Shown here piece by piece: positions 11,803-17,945 of a DNA stretch of 64,000 nucleotides. Both the position numbers and the translations under genes were made by a program. Each line of letters opens with the position of its first letter. Position 1 is the stretch's first letter. The stretch is from Prevotella sp. UBA4330 (GTDB lineage Bacteria > Bacteroidota > Bacteroidia > Bacteroidales > Bacteroidaceae). The stretch spans positions 60,722 to 124,721 of the forward strand of contig DGTS01000011.1 in the NCBI GenBank assembly GCA_002394385.1, read 5' to 3'. The notes beneath the pieces are model-generated. The model had not been told where the DNA came from. It searched no databases and saw nothing but the letters and a program-made list of their open reading frames with translations.

Positions 11803-11914
11803 CACACCACTTACGCCCTCTCCTACCCTCAAAAACCACCTCCTGCCACCCCACTAATATCAAGCAGGATTCCAAGACATATCAAATAGAATTCCAAGAC
11901 ATATCAAACCGCGG

Positions 11915-11980
11915 AACAAAGTTAATAACATTGTCGAACAAAGTTAATAACATTGTCTAACAAAGTTATTAACTTTGTTC
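11915..11980. repeat. Three tandem 22-bp palindromic units (AACAAAGTTATTAACTTTGTTC family)
   Basis: Units at 11915, 11937 and 11959, preceded by a 22-nt-period direct repeat (ATTCCAAGACATATCAAA at 11869 and 11891). Confidence 0.9.
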
Positions 11981-12199: not shown

Positions 12200-12411
12200 A
12201 TGGAACGTAAACGAATTAACCGCCTGAAGGTGGTACTTGCAGAGAAAGGAATGACCAACAAACAACTGTCGGAAATCCTTGATAAGGACCCTGCTGTATA
12301 TCAAAGTGGGTGACTAATGCCGCCCAGCCTAATGTGGAAATGTTCATCCAGTTATCAAAAGTATTGGGTGTGAGTGTAGATGATTTACTTTGGACAGAAG
12401 AACATGACTAA
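12200..12411 (+). pseudogene. XRE-family HTH transcriptional regulator, frameshifted
   Basis: MERKRINRLKVVLAEKGMTNKQLSEILDKDPAV, then a 1-nt shift near 12299, then SKWVTNAAQPNVEMFIQLSKVLGVSVDDLLWTEEHD*. The span is 212 nt, one base short of a full frame. Confidence 0.8.
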
Positions 12412-12422
12412 TAATAGACTAA

Positions 12423-12482
12423 AAACAGCGCCTGAAAGATGAGAGGAATGAAACCGTGACAAATTGTCACGCTTTCGAACTC
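12423..12482 (+). pseudogene. Internal fragment of a Bro-N (phage antirepressor-like) gene
   Basis: Translates KQRLKDERNETVTNCHAFEL, matching the KQRLKxEGNETVTNCH signature I recall from Bacteroidota Bro-N proteins. It has no start codon and follows a stop. Confidence 0.6.
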
Positions 12483-12540
12483 CGCGTTGCAGATATGTTA
12501 ACAAATTAGGACTTGTGCCAGCAAATATTATATAGGAACT

Positions 12541-13398
12541 ATGGATATACAGAAAATACATCAATACAAGTCGGCCTTCGACTTGATAGCGAAGAGCATC
12601 AAAGACGATGAGGGAAACGCCATCGAAGTATGGTATGCACGTGAGTTGCAACAAGTGTTGGGCTATGCCCGATGGGAGAATTTCGTGGTAGCCATTGGTC
12701 GTGCCATGGAATCGTGTAAGACATTGGGAGTCAATGTGGATGATCATTTTCGTGAGGTCACGAAAATGATAGCTTTGGCCAAAGGAGCTCAGCGCGAAGT
12801 TCAAGACTTTATGCTCACGCGATATGCCTGCTATTTGATAGCGCAGAATGGTGACCCGAAAAAGGAAGAAGTGGCTTTTGCACAAAGTTACTTTGCAGTC
12901 CAAACTCGTAAGGCAGAACTCATTGAAGAACGATTAAACGAAGTGGCGCGTCTGAATACCCGTGAACGCCTACGGGCCTCTGAGAAGCAGCTAAGCCGTA
13001 ATATCTATCAACGCGGAGTGGACGACCGTGGCTTTGGCCGCATCCGTTCAAAAGGTGACTATGCCCTATTTGGTGGTCTGTCAACAGAACAAATGAAGCG
13101 TCGACTTGGCATCAAAAGCGGTGCTTTAGCCGATTATTTGCCCACATTGACGATTGCCGCCAAGAATCTTGCTACGGAAATGACCAATTACAATGTAGAG
13201 CAAAAGGACCTATATGGTGAAGCAAGCATCACAGCCGAGCACGTGCAGAACAACCGAAGCGTTCGTGGTATGCTGGGCCAACGTGGTATCAAGCCCGAAG
13301 ATCTTCCACCTGCAGAAGACATTAAAAAGGTAGAAAGGCGGGTAGCCAAAGATGAGAAGAACATGCAAAAGGACACATCAAGACTTCCAAAGAAATGA
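12541..13398 (+). CDS. dinD: DNA damage-inducible protein D
   Basis: WYARELQQVLGY, DHFREVTKM, LTRYACYLIAQNGDPKKEEVAFAQSYFAVQTRK, RSKGD, LADYLPT. Confidence 0.9.
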   Translation: MDIQKIHQYKSAFDLIAKSIKDDEGNAIEVWYARELQQVLGYARWENFVVAIGRAMESCKTLGVNVDDHFREVTKMIALAKGAQREVQDFMLTRYACYLIAQNGDPKKEEVAFAQSYFAVQTRKAELIEERLNEVARLNTRERLRASEKQLSRNIYQRGVDDRGFGRIRSKGDYALFGGLSTEQMKRRLGIKSGALADYLPTLTIAAKNLATEMTNYNVEQKDLYGEASITAEHVQNNRSVRGMLGQRGIKPEDLPPAEDIKKVERRVAKDEKNMQKDTSRLPKK

Positions 13399-13475
13399 AT
13401 AATAGGTCCACAAGGCTTTTACAGAAAACGAACGAGAGTATTAACAAATTGGGGGGGGGCCTGAGAAAAAAGTAA

Positions 13476-13610
13476 CAAAAAAGACTGCAAGAAATAACAG
13501 AAGGAACAAAGCAATGCATAATTCCATTGTTCCAACGTCCAAACAGCTGGACGCAAAAAGAGTGGAGCATTCAGAAAAAGATTTGAACTGCATCAGCAAC
13601 TAACACATTA
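13476..13610 (+). pseudogene. N-terminal remnant of a DUF262 (GmrSD-like) gene
   Basis: Stop-bounded frame QKRLQEITEGTKQCIIPLFQRPNSWTQKEW, resembling the DUF262 start signature IIEGTKQYxxPLFQRxYSW. Confidence 0.6.
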
Positions 13611-13648
13611 AATATCGTATGTGGTGATAAATTAAATGAAAGATAAAT

Positions 13649-16549
13649 ATGAACGAAAATATAATTGACATCATTCAAGATATAAAGGAGCGAGCCGATA
13701 AAGAATACGAGCAAGCGAAAACTGTTCGTGCTATTGGTCGTGGTAATATCTTTTTGACTGGTCCAAAGATGGATAAGCAAATCTGGATTACAAATACGGA
13801 ACCAGAATATACACAATATGGCCCACGTTTCAGGGATGGGTCATTTGCATCAATCACAGATAGCGTATGCAATGCGCTTGTTGAGCGTGGCCAGCTCGTG
13901 GTTTCAAAAAACAAAACGTATGCCCAACGAGTGCTGAGATATTACGATGGGCACCACGATGTGATGTATAATGGTCGTCGTATCATTTTTGACATTCTCA
14001 ATTCTGCCAACTTTATCAATCCATCTACTGGCAATTCGCGTGACTTGTCAAATATCCAAGTGGGCATGGTTGGCATGAAAAACTTCATGACCTTCCGAGA
14101 TATTGCTACGGCACTAAAACAATTGTCGGAAGTTGGTGCTAAACAGAAAAGTGCTGCTGAAGAGGAAAAAGCCGCGCGAAAACGACTACAGGAATTAGAA
14201 GAACAGCGTCAGCGTGACGAAGAGGAACGCCAACGCCAAATAAAAGCTGCTCAAGATGCAGAAGAGAAACGACGCATCGAAGAAGAACAGCGTCGCATTG
14301 AGGAGGAGCGGCAACGTCAGATTGCTGAGGAACAAGAGCGACAGCGCAAAGCAGAGGAGGAACGCAAACAGTTTGAGGAGGAATTGGTGGCACTCTCCGA
14401 CAAGTATGCCAATGCAGCAAGTTTCATTCGTAAACAGGCTTCACTCCGGCTTAACCCGAATCTTTCAGACGAGCAGCTCGACATCAAGTTCTCGCATGTG
14501 TTGGACGGCACTACCGTAGTTATCAACGGTGGTCCTGGAACTGGTAAGACCACAACACTTATCCAACGTCTGAAGTTACTTATCAGCAGTTCTGACCTTT
14601 TAGACTATCGCGAGAATCATCCTGAATGTACGCTTACAGATGAAGAAATCCGTATCGCTTCTGACCCTGAACACAACTGGATTTTCTTCTCACCAACAGA
14701 ACTACTCCGGCAGTTTATGCGTGATAACATGAACTACGAGGGTTTGACCGATACCAACCGTAAGACCGTGGTGTGGGCTGACTATCTGAGAAGGACGCTT
14801 GTGCGCGACAAATATCAATTCGCTGGCGACGATTTCCCGTTTGACTTTGCGAAATCATCAATGAATGAAAGTCCCATCTACACCAGCAACCATGTTGCGC
14901 TAATCAACCGCTTCATCCGTGAATACATCACAGAGATGAAGAAGAAATTGCAGGTTGTGGCAGAGATTGATACAAGTCGTTTCAGATGGCATCAGGTAGG
15001 GAAACGCATCACAGAGGTTTGTAAGGATGCAAATAAACGTATCAGTGCCACTGCCTCACTCGTTAGGCTGATGCTTGACTTGGATGCCATACATGAGATG
15101 CCAACACCGTCAGGCATTCTTTCTGCAAAGGATGTCGTGGATTCCTATAAGGAACAAATGCAACGCATATCTACATCCTATATGGCAGAATGGCGTAAGG
15201 ATGAGAAGTTTTATGCCGACCTTGTGGAAATGGCGAAGAACTGGAAGAACAACAACCTTACTGAGGAGGAAGAAGAGGAAGTTGGCGAAATGGATGAAGA
15301 CGAAATCCTTGCTGGTGCTGAAAACAAACTGCTCTCAACGCTGAAAACCATGATGAAGCGTCTGGCACTACATACCATAGATACAAAGATTACCCTCACG
15401 GGTAGAGCCAAGCAACTCTATGACAAGGTAGAAAGCCGCATCATTGTTACAGACTATGAGAACCTTGCGGAGTATGCTTACTTCATGCAGTTCTTCTATC
15501 CTATCATTCATAATTACGAAGGCTATCTCTTCAACAAGATAACTACTATCTACAAAAACTTCCGTCGTGAAGCCCTGAAAACAGGAATGGCCGGATGGAA
15601 CAAGAAGTTGTTGAAACAGATTGTTGAGGATGGTAAGAACCGACCATTATGTCAACAGGAACAGGCGCTATTGATAGGATTTATCAACAACCTTATTCTT
15701 AGCATACGTTCTGTGTCTGTCCGTCGCTTCGAGGTTCTGAAACACAAGTTCGCGTTGGCTTATAAAGATGTTTGCCGTCCTGTCATTGGCATTGACGAAG
15801 CTACAGACTATACACTCGTTGACTACTATGCCATCAACTCGCTGCGCCATTATAAGGTGTCATCATTTACCCTGACGGGTGACATGATGCAGGGATTACG
15901 TATTGATGGTATTATGGACTGGATGGACTTGCAACGTCCAAACATGTTCAGCAGCGTGGAGGTGAAGGATCTTACCGTCTCATATCGACAAAGTCCAAAG
16001 CTTATGCGATTGGCTGATGCCATCTATGAGCATGAACAGGGGAAACCGTCACCCTACAAGTGTAAACTTGAACAGGATGAAAGTTGTCCAAATCCCCTCT
16101 TGCTTGAATCAAATGATGAGGAAGAGAAAGCTGAGTGGATAGCAAAACGTGTGCTTGAAGTAAAGCAAAAGTATGGCTTTGTTCCATCTATTGCAGTATT
16201 TGTTGCCGATAAACAAGACGCAGCAGAACTGGAGGTGTTGCTAAAAGACGATGGGCGTTTGGAAAACAACGGCATTGATGTGAAGGATTGTAGCTCTGGT
16301 GATAACTTGTCTGCCCAGGATATGTTACGTATCTTCCCTCTGGACAAGGTGAAAGGAATGGAGTTTGAGGTTGTTTTCTTCCATAATATAGATAGAGTGA
16401 AGGCTTCTAAGCTAATCAGCCGCTACCTTTATGTGGGATTGTCGCGAGCCACGTTCTTTATGGGTGTTACGGCAACCAGTACTGATATTGACATTCTTCC
16501 TGAAATAATAGACGAATTTGATACCACAGGAACATGGGGAGAGGAATAA
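13649..16549 (+). CDS. Superfamily I (UvrD/HelD-like) helicase/ATPase, 966 aa, with an N-terminal domain and a long charged coiled coil
   Basis: Q motif LSDEQ, Walker A GGPGTGKTT (14528-14554), Ia FFSPT, Walker B IGIDEATD, III LTGDMMQ, IV LTVSYRQS, V KVKGMEFEVV, VI LYVGLSRA. An E/R/Q/K-rich helix spans about aa 160-250. Confidence 0.85.
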   Translation: MNENIIDIIQDIKERADKEYEQAKTVRAIGRGNIFLTGPKMDKQIWITNTEPEYTQYGPRFRDGSFASITDSVCNALVERGQLVVSKNKTYAQRVLRYYDGHHDVMYNGRRIIFDILNSANFINPSTGNSRDLSNIQVGMVGMKNFMTFRDIATALKQLSEVGAKQKSAAEEEKAARKRLQELEEQRQRDEEERQRQIKAAQDAEEKRRIEEEQRRIEEERQRQIAEEQERQRKAEEERKQFEEELVALSDKYANAASFIRKQASLRLNPNLSDEQLDIKFSHVLDGTTVVINGGPGTGKTTTLIQRLKLLISSSDLLDYRENHPECTLTDEEIRIASDPEHNWIFFSPTELLRQFMRDNMNYEGLTDTNRKTVVWADYLRRTLVRDKYQFAGDDFPFDFAKSSMNESPIYTSNHVALINRFIREYITEMKKKLQVVAEIDTSRFRWHQVGKRITEVCKDANKRISATASLVRLMLDLDAIHEMPTPSGILSAKDVVDSYKEQMQRISTSYMAEWRKDEKFYADLVEMAKNWKNNNLTEEEEEEVGEMDEDEILAGAENKLLSTLKTMMKRLALHTIDTKITLTGRAKQLYDKVESRIIVTDYENLAEYAYFMQFFYPIIHNYEGYLFNKITTIYKNFRREALKTGMAGWNKKLLKQIVEDGKNRPLCQQEQALLIGFINNLILSIRSVSVRRFEVLKHKFALAYKDVCRPVIGIDEATDYTLVDYYAINSLRHYKVSSFTLTGDMMQGLRIDGIMDWMDLQRPNMFSSVEVKDLTVSYRQSPKLMRLADAIYEHEQGKPSPYKCKLEQDESCPNPLLLESNDEEEKAEWIAKRVLEVKQKYGFVPSIAVFVADKQDAAELEVLLKDDGRLENNGIDVKDCSSGDNLSAQDMLRIFPLDKVKGMEFEVVFFHNIDRVKASKLISRYLYVGLSRATFFMGVTATSTDIDILPEIIDEFDTTGTWGEE

Positions 16550-16552
16550 AGA

Positions 16553-16690
16553 ATGACACCGCAATATCTCGGAAATAAAGCCTTGCTCAATAAGAAGTTG
16601 ACAGCCTTCTTTGTGAGTCGCACCATCCTGACTGCACGGGTGATGAGGTGCTGTAATATATTTTTATACAGTTTAACTCCCATGAGTTAA
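16553..16690 (+). pseudogene. 5' remnant of a small DprA/SLOG-like Bacteroidota gene
   Basis: MTPQYLGNKALLNKKLTAFFVSRTILTARVMRC resembles the YLGNxELLxxxKTAFL-S N-terminus. Similarity stops near 16652. Confidence 0.55.
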
Positions 16691-16741
16691 TGGGTAACTA
16701 TAATACACTTAGTGGTTAACTCTAAAAGAGATTATTTTGCA

Positions 16742-17752
16742 ATGAACAACGAGATACAATTTATATTATACCAGTTGCCTGACGAGGAAGGCAGGGTGCA
16801 GGTGGTGATAAAGGACGAGACAATATGGGCTACGCAGAAAGCGATGGCGCAGTTGTTTGGCGTGGGTGTACCCGCCATCAGCAAACATCTGGCCCACATA
16901 TTTGAAGAGGGAGAATTGGACAGAAATGTGGTTGTTTCCAAAATGGAAACAACCACTCAACATGGTGCTATTGAAGGCAAAACCCAGACGAATGAAACGG
17001 CATTTTATTCGCTTGATGCCATTATCGCCGTAGGCTATCGTGTATCATCCGCCCGTGCAACGAAGTTCCGTATTTGGGCTACGAAAATTCTGAATGAGTA
17101 TATCCGTAAAGGGTTTGTGTTGGATGATGAGCGTCTAAAACAGGGCAAGGCTGTATTTGGAAAAGACTATTTCCGCGAATTGTTGGAGAGAGTCAGAAGC
17201 ATACGTGCCAGCGAACGCCGTATCTGGCAGCAAATAACAGATATTTATGCAGAATGTTCATACGACTACGACCGCAACTCCCCAACAACGCGAGAGTTCT
17301 ATCAGATGATACAGAACCGTTTCCACTATGCCATTACAGGGCAGACGGCTCCCGAAATTATATACACCCGTGCAGACCACAGCAAAGAACACATGGGGCT
17401 ACAGACGTGGAAGAATGCACCAGACGGAAGGGTATTGCTTAGTGACACAAAGGTTGCCAAAAACTATTTGCCAGAGAAGGAAATACGGCAATTGGAAAGA
17501 GCCGTGACAGGCTATTTCGACTATATTGAAGACTTGATAGAACGGGAAAATGCTTTTAATATGGAGCAGTTTGCCGCCTCGGTCAATGAGTTCCTTACTT
17601 TCCGCAGATATGCGCTTTTGCCTGACAAGGGAAAAATAAGCAGAGAAGAAGCAGACCGAAAAGCCGAAGAAGAATATCGGCTGTTTAATCCTACCCAGAG
17701 AATAGACTCAGATTTCGACAAACAAGTCAGAGGTCTGTTTGATGAAACATAA
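16742..17752 (+). CDS. rhuM: Virulence RhuM family protein
   Basis: ETIWATQKAMAQLF, ISKHL, YSLDAIIAVGYRVSSARATKFRIWAT, RIRxSER-type RSIRASERR, WKNAPDGR. The likely start is the ATG at 16742. Confidence 0.9.
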   Translation: MNNEIQFILYQLPDEEGRVQVVIKDETIWATQKAMAQLFGVGVPAISKHLAHIFEEGELDRNVVVSKMETTTQHGAIEGKTQTNETAFYSLDAIIAVGYRVSSARATKFRIWATKILNEYIRKGFVLDDERLKQGKAVFGKDYFRELLERVRSIRASERRIWQQITDIYAECSYDYDRNSPTTREFYQMIQNRFHYAITGQTAPEIIYTRADHSKEHMGLQTWKNAPDGRVLLSDTKVAKNYLPEKEIRQLERAVTGYFDYIEDLIERENAFNMEQFAASVNEFLTFRRYALLPDKGKISREEADRKAEEEYRLFNPTQRIDSDFDKQVRGLFDET

Positions 17753-17857
17753 TCAATATGTTCAACCAAGGTATAAGACGTGTACAGAATGTCGGTCGTG
17801 GTTATAGAGGCCACCGGGAAATTATTGAAAACGATGCAGAGACGTAATTGAGATACA

Positions 17858-17945
17858 ATGACGGTAGAATATCTTGGCAATCAGGAACTGTTGAAACTGT
17901 GAAATGGCTGACAATATATTATTTGTTGGGGTAACAGAGCAAATA
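17858..17945 (+). pseudogene. Internally deleted second DprA/SLOG-like remnant
   Basis: MTVEYLGNQELLKL is fused out of frame to CEMADNILFVGVTEQ, i.e. the N- and C-terminal signatures of the same family, joined at a shared CTG. Confidence 0.55.

What the first reader, a model, noticed from the sequence alone, without database searches (positions are those of the whole stretch)
13649..16549. Stand-alone 966-aa HelD/UvrD-like ATPase with a novel N-domain and ~90-aa charged coiled coil: candidate new defence or RNAP-acting system
Seen: all SF1 motifs are intact (Q, I, Ia, II, III, IV, V, VI). An unrecognised ~150-aa N-terminal domain is followed by a long E/R/Q/K helix. There is a ~400-aa helical insertion between motifs Ia and II carrying an acidic patch (EEEEEEVGEMDEDE), only a short stretch between motifs IV and V (apparently no 2B domain), and no fused nuclease that I can recognise. 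Known: a split 1A domain with a large insertion and no 2B domain is the HelD layout (RNA polymerase recycling), and SF1 helicases are core parts of several anti-phage systems (e.g. Gabija GajB, Hachiman HamB-like partners). Inference: being intact in a decaying defence islet suggests a single-gene anti-phage or abortive ATPase, or a horizontally moved HelD-like factor acting on RNAP.
Basis: partly seen in the sequence, partly recalled or inferred. Interest (0 to 1): 0.78.

Follow-up and report, generated by a model that had tools for sequence, protein, structure and literature searches.

The report
Orphaned HelD-like defence-island ATPase
This intact 966-residue ATPase is built like HelD, the motor that pulls RNA polymerase off DNA, but it belongs to a large uncharacterised family that sits at the end of restriction-modification and other anti-phage operons, and here its neighbouring partner genes have been deleted.

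Summary
The ORF (13649-16549, +) is real. All SF1 motifs are intact, dN/dS against a 97%-identical relative is 0.04, and rumen metatranscriptome assemblies contain it.

Three points change.
- The N-domain is not a new fold. It resembles the Gre-factor/HelD globular domain.
- The gene is not a stand-alone system. Only ~70 nt of an upstream MmeI-type methyltransferase gene and ~93 nt of a downstream DprA/SLOG-like gene survive, so it is the orphaned middle of a cassette.
- The family has at least 613 clusters at 50% identity, is mostly from Bacteroidota with cousins on proteobacterial plasmids, and usually lies at or near the 3' end of methylation-based defence operons (Type I, IIG, III, MADS-like). 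Small partners follow it: SLOG, sulfur-binding-domain-like, or TIR+SLATT.

HelD is the best match by fold and by profile. The HelD-defining DWR motif is absent and the N-terminal module order is reversed, so it is HelD-like but not a HelD.

Best reading (about 0.45): a HelD-type motor that engages RNA polymerase and serves as sensor or remodeller in defence cassettes. Main rival (about 0.35): a GajB/ArmD-like motor acting on DNA.

The parts
13649..16549 (+). 966-aa SF1 ATPase of HelD-like architecture (whole ORF including stop)
   Evidence: ORF list and translation. Family of at least 613 clusters at 50% identity with E<=1e-30. dN/dS 0.039 against the 97%-identical relative in L001. The exact protein is found on at least 9 contigs with the same neighbours.
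13649..14101 (+). N-terminal globular domain (aa 1-151): one helix plus a beta-rich fold, Gre-CTD / HelD-NTR-like. Invariant W46 and K87; near-invariant R31, N49, N88, G101
   Evidence: AF2 of aa 1-158 gives pLDDT 94.6. Foldseek top hits are HelD 6wvk_H and 6zca_H (prob 1.0), then GreA, Gfh1 and Rnk. hhalign places aa 82-116 on E. coli GreA 117-152 (E 0.0023). The domain HMM hits 208 of 260 family proteins.
14102..14452 (+). E/R/K/Q-rich helical segment (aa 152-268), predicted as two helices broken at aa 198-210. It could be a Gre/HelD-like hairpin or a single-alpha-helix spacer
   Evidence: AF2 secondary structure with pLDDT 41-67. 62% of residues are E, R, K or Q. The distance from the N-domain end to Walker A varies 75-192 aa across the family. 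Internal 28-nt DNA repeats lie at 14197-14356.
14528..14551 (+). Walker A / motif I (GGPGTGKT, aa 294-301)
   Evidence: Read directly; invariant in alignment A1.
14846..15748 (+). All-helical insertion splitting domain 1A (about aa 400-700), at the position of UvrD 1B and the HelD clamp arm
   Evidence: AF2 secondary structure. Aligned across phyla to the Raoultella plasmid cousin.
15260..15301 (+). Disordered acidic loop in the insertion (EEEEEEVGEMDEDE, aa 538-551)
   Evidence: pLDDT below 50 at aa 547-554. The acidic composition is universal in the family: median 13 D/E and 2 K/R in 35 residues. It is also present in the proteobacterial cousin.
15785..15922 (+). Motifs II and III (IGIDEATD ... 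TLTGDMMQGLRIDGIMDW, aa 713-758). The motif III region is HelD-like and lacks the UvrD 'YGWRGA' element
   Evidence: HMMER alignments to M. smegmatis HelD and to UvrD.
15956..16483 (+). Continuous 2A domain (about aa 770-945) with motifs IV, V and VI and no 2B insertion
   Evidence: AF2. Pfam UvrD_C and UvrD_C_2 partial hits.
13578..13648 (+). Stub of the 3' end of an MmeI/Eco57I-type (type IIG) methyltransferase gene, with an in-frame stop
   Evidence: blastn homology to L001 begins at 13578. The L001 upstream ORF matches the C-terminus of the L020 MmeI-like methyltransferase (35% identity, E 1e-23). Frame reading shows '..N*HIKYRMW**' against '..NYDIKYRLG'.
16553..16690 (+). Truncated DprA/SLOG-like partner gene. 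The first 31 codons match the 156-aa gene of L001 (27 of 31 identical), then the sequence diverges to a stop after 45 codons
   Evidence: The intact partner hits Pfam DNA_processg_A, and its 68%-identical L022 homologue hits PADLOC PsyrA at 1.7e-11.
12541..13398 (+). Bro-N domain gene (PADLOC candidate PDC-S13). It now replaces the original upstream neighbour
16712..17752 (+). RhuM-family gene (PADLOC candidate PDC-S05). It now replaces the original downstream neighbour
12200..12411 (+). Frameshifted XRE-type HTH pseudogene at the left of the islet
   Evidence: Read from the sequence: MERKRINRLKVVLAEKGMTNKQLSEILDKDPAVYQSG*, then WVTNAAQPNVEMF... in another frame.

Best explanation
SHOWN. The gene encodes an intact SF1 ATPase under purifying selection whose architecture is that of HelD. 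It has a Gre-factor-like globular N-domain, a long charged helical element, a 1A domain split by a large helical arm that carries an acidic loop, and a continuous 2A domain with no 2B. It belongs to a large uncharacterised family, mostly from Bacteroidota with cousins on proteobacterial plasmids. In most relatives' loci examined, the gene sits downstream of, or (in the proteobacterial plasmids) within, methylation-based defence operons on the same strand: Type I, MmeI-type IIG plus PLD-SNF2, Type III, and MADS/SspFGH-like. It is commonly followed by, or fused to, a small variable partner: DprA/SLOG-like, ScoMcrA sulfur-binding-domain-like, or ThsB-TIR plus SLATT. In this window recombination has removed both neighbours and left stubs, so the ATPase is an orphaned cassette member between Bro-N and RhuM genes.

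INFERRED. By analogy with HelD, the Gre-like N-module docks the protein on RNA polymerase at the rim of the secondary channel. The helical arm with its acidic loop enters the main channel, and ATP hydrolysis opens the clamp or releases nucleic acid. In a defence cassette this would either (a) strip or sense RNA polymerase that is transcribing or stalled on invading DNA, clearing the way for the translocating restriction enzymes encoded upstream, or (b) report hijacked RNA polymerase to the SLOG, TIR or SLATT partner. Without a partner, the orphan copy could still act as a plain RNA polymerase remodeller.
For: - Fold: the six best PDB matches are all HelD (E 4.7e-18 to 2.8e-13), ahead of AddA, PcrA and UvrD.
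- Profile against PDB sequences: HelD 7.3e-7, UvrD 3e-4. The motif III region aligns to HelD 'GDLAQRRSPAGARSW' and not to UvrD 'GDDDQSIYGWRGA'. NCBIfam gives weak HelD and HelR hits over the same region.
- N-domain modelled alone: best hits are the HelD chains, then GreA (prob 0.96), Gfh1, Rnk and a GreA/Gfh1 chimera. hhalign places the conserved SKN..GR.LL motif on GreA's S.NSPIARGLIG motif.
- The acidic loop in the 1A insertion is conserved in composition across the family and across phyla. This parallels the acidic primary-channel loop of class II HelD (PMC7749167).
- There is no 2B domain.
- Defence context.
- Partners: two homologous pairs of downstream genes; fusion of the SBD-like partner in P0030 (blastp 2.4e-11); PsyrA-like SLOG; ThsB_TIR and SLATT.
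- Orphaning.
- Still functional: dN/dS 0.039, with 10 derived residues in the window copy against 17 in the partnered copy. It is present in metatranscriptome assemblies, with a 10-25-fold drop in the next intergenic region.
Against: - The HelD-defining DWR[A/S]P Trp-cage motif (PMC8655204) is absent from the N-domain.
- The module order is globular then helices, the reverse of HelD and Gre.
- The helical element is ER/K-rich with few helix breakers. Its length varies about 3-fold across the family and it is modelled at low confidence. That suits a single-alpha-helix spacer as well as a channel-inserting hairpin.
- The N-domain matches are weak in absolute terms (Foldseek E 3.7e-3, TM 0.42; hhalign probability 12.6%; no Pfam GreA_GreB hit).
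- Global TM-scores to HelD (0.40-0.49) are no better than to UvrD.
- No RNA polymerase interaction was tested.
- The partners (a reader of modified DNA; a DprA-like protein) and the restriction-modification context point at DNA at least as much as at RNA polymerase.
Confidence: 0.45

Rival explanations
1. A DNA-directed SF1 motor like Gabija GajB, ARMADA ArmD or the DarTG-associated DarH. It would load on DNA ends, nicks or forks made by the upstream restriction system or by phage replication, translocate or hydrolyse ATP, and thereby activate or assist the small partner (SLOG, TIR/SLATT, or reader of modified DNA). RNA polymerase would not be involved, and the HelD resemblance would reflect only shared loss of 2B and a large 1B-position insert.
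For: - All SF1 motifs are intact.
- In most relatives' loci examined, the gene lies downstream of, or within, operons of DNA-targeting methylation-based systems.
- It is fused to, or adjacent to, a ScoMcrA SBD-like DNA-modification reader.
- Precedents exist: ArmD is the last, essential SF1 gene of an SNF2 + methyltransferase + helicase system (PMC12458937), and DarH is a UvrD-like helicase without 2B in a defence system (PMC13069673).
- TM-scores to UvrD and PcrA equal those to HelD.
Against: - PADLOC GajB models barely register (E 0.005, 13.7 bits, P-loop only).
- Motif III lacks the aromatic/arginine 'WRGA' element that contacts single-stranded DNA in UvrD and PcrA (named from my own knowledge of those enzymes) and aligns to HelD instead.
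- The N-domain's only structural relatives are proteins that bind RNA polymerase.
- A conserved acidic loop is an odd feature for a DNA-binding arm.
Confidence: 0.35
2. A toxin-antitoxin-like pair, analogous to PsyrTA, in which the helicase-like ATPase is the toxic effector and the SLOG or SBD partner is its antitoxin or sensor. The window copy would then be a disarmed or tolerated toxin.
For: The downstream SLOG protein hits PADLOC PsyrA (1.7e-11). The genes are tightly coupled, with 3-nt spacing in L001. The partner families are variable.
Against: - The window copy has lost its partner, yet it is intact, under strong purifying selection and no more diverged than the partnered copy. It also persists with identical sequence on at least 9 contigs from several samples and studies. 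That is hard to reconcile with an unneutralised toxin.
- Several relatives have no small partner at all (L010, L012).
- PsyrT is, from my own knowledge, a RecQ-like SF2 protein, not SF1.
Confidence: 0.1
3. A housekeeping repair or recycling helicase, or a decaying relic with no current function.
For: In the window it lies between core genes (DUF4861 and thrA) in an islet full of pseudogene fragments.
Against: - It is not in a conserved core locus. The 97%-identical copy sits in a different neighbourhood, and other relatives lie in many unrelated defence islands.
- The islet edges are variable in the population, shown by loose ends at about 11940 and about 17850.
- dN/dS is 0.039.
- Contigs from transcriptome libraries cover it.
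- Per PMC8655204, canonical class I HelD genes of 671-693 aa occur in Bacteroides. This family is distinct from them.
Confidence: 0.07

Closest known systems
HelD / HelR RNA polymerase recycling motors (class I B. subtilis, class II M. smegmatis, class III Deltaproteobacteria)
   Same: - SF1 core with 1A split by a large helical arm, and a continuous 2A with no 2B.
- A Gre-like globular domain plus a long helical element N-terminal to 1A.
- An acidic loop on the arm, as in class II.
- A HelD-like motif III region.
- Best fold match and best profile match in the PDB.
   Different: - No DWR[A/S]P Trp-cage motif.
- The globular domain precedes the helices rather than following them.
- The arm insert is larger (about 300 aa against 150-250).
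- It scores 29 bits against the NCBIfam HelD cut-off of 1051.
- It is encoded in defence islands with SLOG, TIR or SBD partners, not as a housekeeping or rifamycin-induced gene.
ARMADA type II ArmD and Gabija GajB (UvrD-like NTPases in defence systems)
   Same: An SF1 ATPase that is the last gene of an SNF2 + methyltransferase + helicase defence operon and is required there for defence (PMC12458937). The operon logic matches L020, L022 and L036.
   Different: ArmD carries an N-terminal RelE-like domain and is GajB-like. The GajB HMMs hit this protein only at the P-loop (E 0.005). This family has a Gre-like N-domain and a 300-aa arm. No direct comparison with ArmD was made.
PsyrTA / ShosTA-type pairs with a DprA-like (SLOG) small partner
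   Same: The ancestral downstream gene, now a stub in the window and intact in L001 and L022, is a DprA/SLOG-like protein of about 155 aa that hits PADLOC PsyrA.
   Different: The large partner here is an SF1 HelD-like ATPase, not a RecQ-like helicase or a phosphoribosyltransferase. The small partner is replaceable: SBD-like, TIR+SLATT, or none.
MADS (mad1-8) and Dnd/Ssp FGH modules
   Same: In L026 and L015 the family member lies just downstream of kinase, mad7-like and mad8-like genes.
   Different: It is not Mad8. The true mad8-like domain is the C-terminus of a separate protein of about 1800 aa (4.7e-32). This protein's own mad8 hit covers 45 profile positions around the P-loop.
Unnamed proteobacterial operon WYL / HKD-SNF2 / DUF4391 / SF1 ATPase / Type III Mod / Type III Res (Raoultella p3045-3, Aeromonas pE31A)
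   Same: Its 900-aa 'ATP-binding domain-containing protein' is a true homologue. The family HMM scores 2.4e-87, and the alignment covers the pre-Walker-A helix, the core, the arm and the acidic loop.
   Different: Its N-terminal 215 aa do not match the N-domain HMM. It is embedded in the middle of the operon rather than at its end. I found no paper describing this operon; a search for DUF4391 returned 2 unrelated papers.

Membership tests
HelD (RNA polymerase recycling motor) | DWR[A/S]P 'Trp-cage' motif in the N-terminal domain (PMC8655204) | tested here: not met
   There is no DWR in aa 1-280. The invariant N-domain Trp is W46, in 'IWITN'. The only 'DW' is D757-W758, after motif III.
HelD (RNA polymerase recycling motor) | Gre-like N-terminal region: a coiled coil that inserts into the secondary channel, followed by a globular domain | tested here: inconclusive
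   A globular Gre/HelD-like domain is present and long helices are present. However, the order is reversed, the helices are ER/K-rich and of variable length, and their hairpin packing could not be checked.
HelD (RNA polymerase recycling motor) | 1A domain split by a helical clamp arm, with a continuous 2A and no 2B | tested here: met
   AF2 model. The best Foldseek hits are HelD chains.
HelD (RNA polymerase recycling motor) | Curated HMM cut-offs (NCBIfam HelD_MYCSM 1051 bits; HelR 750-1100 bits) | tested here: not met
   29.3, 26.5 and 15 bits.
HelD (RNA polymerase recycling motor) | Binds RNA polymerase and releases nucleic acid in an ATP-dependent manner | not testable with these tools
   No complex prediction or experiment was available.
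UvrD/Rep/PcrA SF1A helicases | Seven SF1 motifs plus the Q motif | tested here: met
UvrD/Rep/PcrA SF1A helicases | 1B and 2B accessory domains, and Pfam UvrD-helicase / UvrD_C hits above the gathering scores | tested here: not met
   No 2B. UvrD-helicase scores 16 bits against 23; UvrD_C scores 21.8 against 25.6.
Gabija GajB | Match to the GajB HMMs and an adjacent GajA (ATPase-TOPRIM) gene | tested here: not met
   E 0.005, 13.7 bits, P-loop only. No GajA-like gene is adjacent in the window.
MADS Mad8 | Full-length match to the mad8 HMM | tested here: not met
   25 bits over profile positions 26-70 of 314. A separate neighbouring protein in L026 is the mad8 homologue.
ARMADA type II ArmD | [quoted passage not shown] | not tested
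   No ArmD sequence was retrieved. The N-domain here is Gre-like, not RelE-like.
Gre-factor C-terminal domain superfamily (N-domain only) | Fold and sequence signature of the GreA/B C-terminal domain (Pfam GreA_GreB) | tested here: inconclusive
   Foldseek gives GreA prob 0.96, Gfh1 0.75 and Rnk 0.57, with TM about 0.3. hhalign gives E 0.0023 but probability 12.6%. None of the 26 N-domains scanned hit Pfam GreA_GreB.

The most novel reading that the evidence does not exclude
This family is a fourth, permuted class of HelD-type motors that remodel RNA polymerase and have been recruited into anti-phage immunity. Docked on RNA polymerase through a Gre-like module, they would sense or evict polymerases engaged on invading DNA, or polymerases hijacked by phage factors. 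They would thereby couple transcription status to restriction enzymes and to SLOG, TIR or SLATT effectors. That would be a defence principle in which the host RNA polymerase is the guarded or monitored machine.
Probability: 0.3. Interest if true: 0.85.

Novelty: new variant of a known kind. Interest (0 to 1): 0.62.

Why it matters
HelD-type motors are known as housekeeping recyclers of RNA polymerase and as rifamycin-resistance factors. To my knowledge and within the searches made here, none has been tied to phage defence.

A family of at least 600 clusters with HelD architecture, consistently attached to restriction-modification, MADS-like and TIR/SLATT modules in gut and rumen Bacteroidota and on enterobacterial and Aeromonas plasmids, gives a concrete and testable link between transcription-complex remodelling and immunity.

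If the rival reading holds instead, the family still adds a widespread, unannotated accessory ATPase to methylation-based defence systems. It is absent from PADLOC-DB v2, which matters for annotating rumen and gut defensomes.

The window copy is itself a natural experiment. It is an orphan kept under purifying selection without its partner, which argues that the ATPase has an activity of its own.

Tried and rejected
- Mad8 identity was suggested by the best PADLOC hit. I rejected it: the hit covers the P-loop only, and a different neighbouring protein is the mad8 homologue.
- I first noted that the N-domain is 'swappable', because many representatives matched the profile only from position about 200. 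This was wrong. An HMM of the N-domain finds it in 208 of 260 proteins, and what varies is the linker length.
- A sequence-level search of the N-domain against the PDB and Pfam gave nothing meaningful: actinohivin at 0.06, and no Gre family.
- The GTDB genome scan was nearly useless.
- tblastn found no match in phage genomes. BFVD gave only generic viral SF1 helicases.
- Literature searches for HelD-like defence proteins, for DUF4391, and for Bacteroidales UvrD/RhuM defence found no description of this family.
- No tRNA or integrase marks the islet.
- I could not inspect model coordinates, so the hairpin-versus-single-helix question for aa 152-268 stays open.
Full report
OBSERVATION

The ORF at 13649-16549 (+) is present exactly as described: ATG start, 966 codons.
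- Q276 (Q motif)
- G294-T303 (GGPGTGKTT, motif I)
- F347-S348-P349..L353 (Ia)
- I713-G-x-D-E-x-T-D-Y721 (II)
- T741..G744-D745..Q748, then W758 (III)
- S778-Y-R780 (IV)
- K902-G-x-E-F906..F910-F911 (V)
- Y928-V..S932-R-A934 (VI)

Curated libraries see only sub-threshold SF1 fragments: Pfam UvrD_C_2, AAA_19 and UvrD_C, and NCBIfam RecD, HelD and HelR at 15-31 bits. No nuclease or other enzymatic domain is detected.

AlphaFold2 on A1 gave a confident model (pLDDT 83.5, pTM 0.80) with these parts:
- a beta-rich N-domain, aa 1-151
- two low-confidence E/R/K/Q helices, aa 152-197 and 211-268
- 1A-1
- an all-helical insertion of about aa 400-700 with a disordered acidic loop (aa 547-554 have pLDDT below 50)
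- 1A-2
- a continuous 2A

The anatomy is confirmed. The insertion is nearer 300 than 400 aa.

WHAT THE PROTEIN RESEMBLES

Against the PDB, the six best Foldseek matches of the full model are all HelD chains: B. subtilis 6wvk/6zca and M. smegmatis 8qu6/6yxu/8qn8/8q3i, with E 4.7e-18 to 2.8e-13. AddA, PcrA, UvrD and RecB follow. TM-scores are modest for all of them (0.3-0.5).

A family profile searched against all PDB sequences also ranks M. smegmatis HelD first (7.3e-7), ahead of UvrD (3e-4). The alignments show why. The stretch after motif III (TLTGDMMQGLRIDGIMDW) pairs with HelD's TIVGDLAQRRSPAGARSW, and not with the GDDDQSIYGWRGA element of true SF1A helicases.

The N-domain was modelled on its own (aa 1-158, pLDDT 94.6). 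It again hits the two B. subtilis HelD chains best (E 3.7e-3 and 8e-3, prob 1.0). GreA (0.96), Gfh1 (0.75), Rnk (0.57) and a GreA/Gfh1 chimera follow. All of these are proteins that bind the secondary channel of RNA polymerase.

A profile-sequence comparison with E. coli GreA, taken from the annotated K-12 record, aligns the family's most conserved N-domain motif (vSKN...GR.LL.N..G) with GreA 117-152 (liSvNSPIARGLIGkeedD). The score is weak: E 0.0023, probability 12.6%. Pfam's Gre model is not hit.

The acidic loop in the 1A insertion is conserved in composition in every family member. The median is 13 D/E and 2 K/R in 35 residues. It is also present in distant proteobacterial cousins. This is reminiscent of the acidic primary-channel loop of class II HelD (PMC7749167).

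WHY IT IS NOT A HelD

Larsen et al. (PMC8655204) define HelD by a DWR[A/S]P Trp-cage motif in the N-terminal domain. That motif is absent here.

In B. subtilis HelD the coiled-coil 'pike' (aa 4-96) precedes the globular part (97-187) (PMC7749165). Here the globular part comes first and the helices follow.

The helical element is ER/K-rich (62%) with few helix breakers. Its length varies: the distance from the N-domain end to Walker A is 75-192 aa, with median 125 and two modes. At the DNA level it contains internal repeats. These properties fit a single-alpha-helix spacer as well as a hairpin.

Canonical class I helD genes of 671-693 aa exist in Bacteroides. This family is distinct from them.

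THE GENE IS AN ORPHANED CASSETTE MEMBER

The closest relative is P0001, 97% identical in protein and 91.6% in DNA. In six contigs it is flanked at 3-nt spacing by two genes: an upstream 205-aa ORF and a downstream 156-aa ORF.

blastn shows that window 13578-16645 equals L001 752-3818. Homology therefore runs only about 70 nt upstream and 96 nt downstream of the ORF.
- The upstream ORF is the C-terminal end of an MmeI/Eco57I-type methyltransferase: 35% identity over 218 aa to the end of the L020 enzyme, E 1e-23. The window keeps only its last codons, with an in-frame stop.
- The downstream ORF is a DprA/SLOG-like protein. It hits Pfam DNA_processg_A at 3.3e-6, and its L022 homologue hits PADLOC PsyrA at 1.7e-11. 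The window keeps its first 31 codons, 27 of them identical to L001, then diverges to a stop (16553-16690).

Bro-N (PDC-S13) and RhuM (PDC-S05) genes now occupy the flanks, and a frameshifted HTH gene lies further left.

The ATPase is nevertheless not decaying:
- dN/dS against L001 is 0.039 at dS 0.41.
- Polarised with four outgroups, the window lineage has 10 derived residues against 17 in the partnered lineage.
- The identical protein in the identical Bro-N | ATPase | RhuM arrangement occurs on at least 9 contigs from sheep and other rumen or gut samples.
- Metatranscriptome assemblies cover 13345-17202 continuously, at about a third to a half of the depth of the neighbouring core genes. The intergenic region before thrA drops 10-25-fold. 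Contig depth is a crude measure and DNA carry-over cannot be excluded.

FAMILY AND CONTEXT

The family is large: 1758 clusters at 50% identity with E<=1e-3, and 613 with E<=1e-30. The named members are Bacteroidota: Prevotella, a Bacteroidales MAG, Paludibacter and Spirosomataceae.

Neighbourhoods of distinct members:
- L007: hsdM-hsdS-GmrSD-hsdR-[ATPase]-156-aa SBD-like gene-zinc ribbon.
- L012: N6/N4 methyltransferase-ResIII-DndD-like-AAA_23-HerA/FtsK-like-[ATPase].
- L020: HTH-PLD/SNF2-MmeI methyltransferase-440 aa-[ATPase with a C-terminal extension].
- L022: PLD/SNF2-type IIG methyltransferase-PtuA/OLD-like gene-GmrSD-[ATPase]-SLOG.
- L026 and L015: kinase-mad7-like-mad8-like (about 1800 aa)-small genes (a PP2C phosphatase in L015)-[ATPase]-138 aa or SBD-like gene.
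- L016: MmeI-Schlafen/AlbA2-DEAD/ResIII-T5orf172-[ATPase, cut by an IS].
- L017: [ATPase]-ThsB_TIR-SLATT_3/SLATT_1-TIR_2.
- L010: alone, beside IS21 and a relaxase.

The downstream partners fall into homologous pairs: SLOG in L001 and L022, and SBD-like in L007 and L015. The SBD-like partner is fused to the ATPase C-terminus in P0030 (blastp 2.4e-11), which is a Rosetta-stone link. Other members carry different C-terminal extensions.

On proteobacterial plasmids, a 900-aa homologue sits inside the operon WYL / HKD-SNF2 / DUF4391 / [ATPase] / Type III Mod / Type III Res. The family HMM scores it at 2.4e-87, and blastp gives 8e-34 and 1e-14 for two segments. No phage genome encodes a relative.

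The family is not represented in PADLOC-DB v2. I found no paper describing it.

MECHANISM

Shown:
- an intact SF1 NTPase
- HelD-like domain plan
- a Gre-like N-domain, at modest significance
- a conserved acidic loop on the arm
- defence-operon context
- modular small partners
- orphan status in this window

Inferred: I consider the most likely mechanism (about 0.45) to be HelD-like engagement of RNA polymerase. The N-module would dock at the secondary-channel rim, the arm would sit in the main channel, and ATP-driven opening would follow. This would be used either to clear or sense polymerases on foreign DNA for the translocating restriction enzymes encoded upstream, or to signal to SLOG, TIR or SLATT effectors.

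The main rival (about 0.35) is a DNA-directed accessory motor like GajB, ArmD or DarH. ArmD is an instructive analogue: it is the last, essential SF1 gene of an SNF2-methyltransferase-helicase system (PMC12458937).

A toxin-antitoxin reading is weakened by the healthy orphan copy. A housekeeping or relic reading is contradicted by the mobile, island-bound distribution and by the selection signal.

VERDICT

- Observation: confirmed.
- Interpretation: partly supported. It is HelD-like and defence-linked, but it is not a stand-alone system, not a novel N-terminal fold, and not a member of HelD proper.
- Novelty: a new variant of a known kind, namely an uncharacterised HelD-architecture family wired into defence cassettes.

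Noticed in passing
window 11857-11979: There are two sets of 22-nt tandem repeats at the left edge of the islet: ATATCAA.CAGGATTCCAAGAC x2 and GAACAAAGTTAATAACATTGTC x3, the last copy forming a near-perfect palindrome. One metatranscriptome assembly shows a copy-number variant ('goes back 66'). Contigs from other strains diverge at about 11937-11978, so this may be a recombination or operator site that marks the islet boundary.
   Followed up: partly
window 17834-17902: The right edge of the variable islet shows loose ends in two runs at 17834-17899. A second tiny ORF at 17858-17902 (MTVEYLGNQELLKL*) resembles the N-terminus of the DprA/SLOG-like partner (MTPQYLGNKALL...). This is a second stub of the same gene family, lying downstream of RhuM.
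   Followed up: no
window 12200-12411: A frameshifted XRE-type HTH gene, whose two halves lie in different frames, sits upstream of the Bro-N gene. One sheep-gut run carries a form that skips 12402-12536.
   Followed up: no
window 12541-13398 and 16712-17752: The Bro-N (PADLOC PDC-S13, 4.6e-115) and RhuM (PDC-S05, 2.6e-152) genes are both unvalidated PADLOC defence candidates. They bracket the ATPase and appear to have replaced its original neighbours.
   Followed up: partly
L036 (Raoultella p3045-3, 57409-70252) and L037 (Aeromonas pE31A): A conserved six-gene operon, WYL / HKD-SNF2 / DUF4391 / SF1 ATPase / Type III Mod / Type III Res, occurs on an IncFII conjugative plasmid from a clinical (human bronchoalveolar lavage) isolate and on an IncU plasmid from a water isolate. 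In Aeromonas an AAA + DUF4276 pair is inserted. I found no literature on this elaborated Type III system.
   Followed up: partly
L017 12445-14511 (Spirosomataceae MAG): A ThsB-TIR / SLATT_3+SLATT_1 / TIR_2 trio lies directly downstream of the family member, next to a Rep3 plasmid-type initiator gene. It may be a helicase-TIR-SLATT abortive-infection module.
   Followed up: no
L026 / L015 (Bacteroidales): These loci hold a Bacteroidales version of a MADS/SspFGH-like module: a NERD-kinase (mad6/PglW/SspF-like), a mad7-like gene, a giant protein of about 1800 aa with a mad8/HerA-like C-terminus, a conserved 182-204-aa protein, and (in L015) a PP2C phosphatase.
   Followed up: partly
L001-L006 (all P0001 contigs): The six P0001 contigs displayed (of 21 read) all break 736-822 nt upstream of the ATPase gene, inside or just before the methyltransferase fragment. 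This suggests a repeat or a variable (shufflon-like) segment there that assemblers cannot cross.
   Followed up: no
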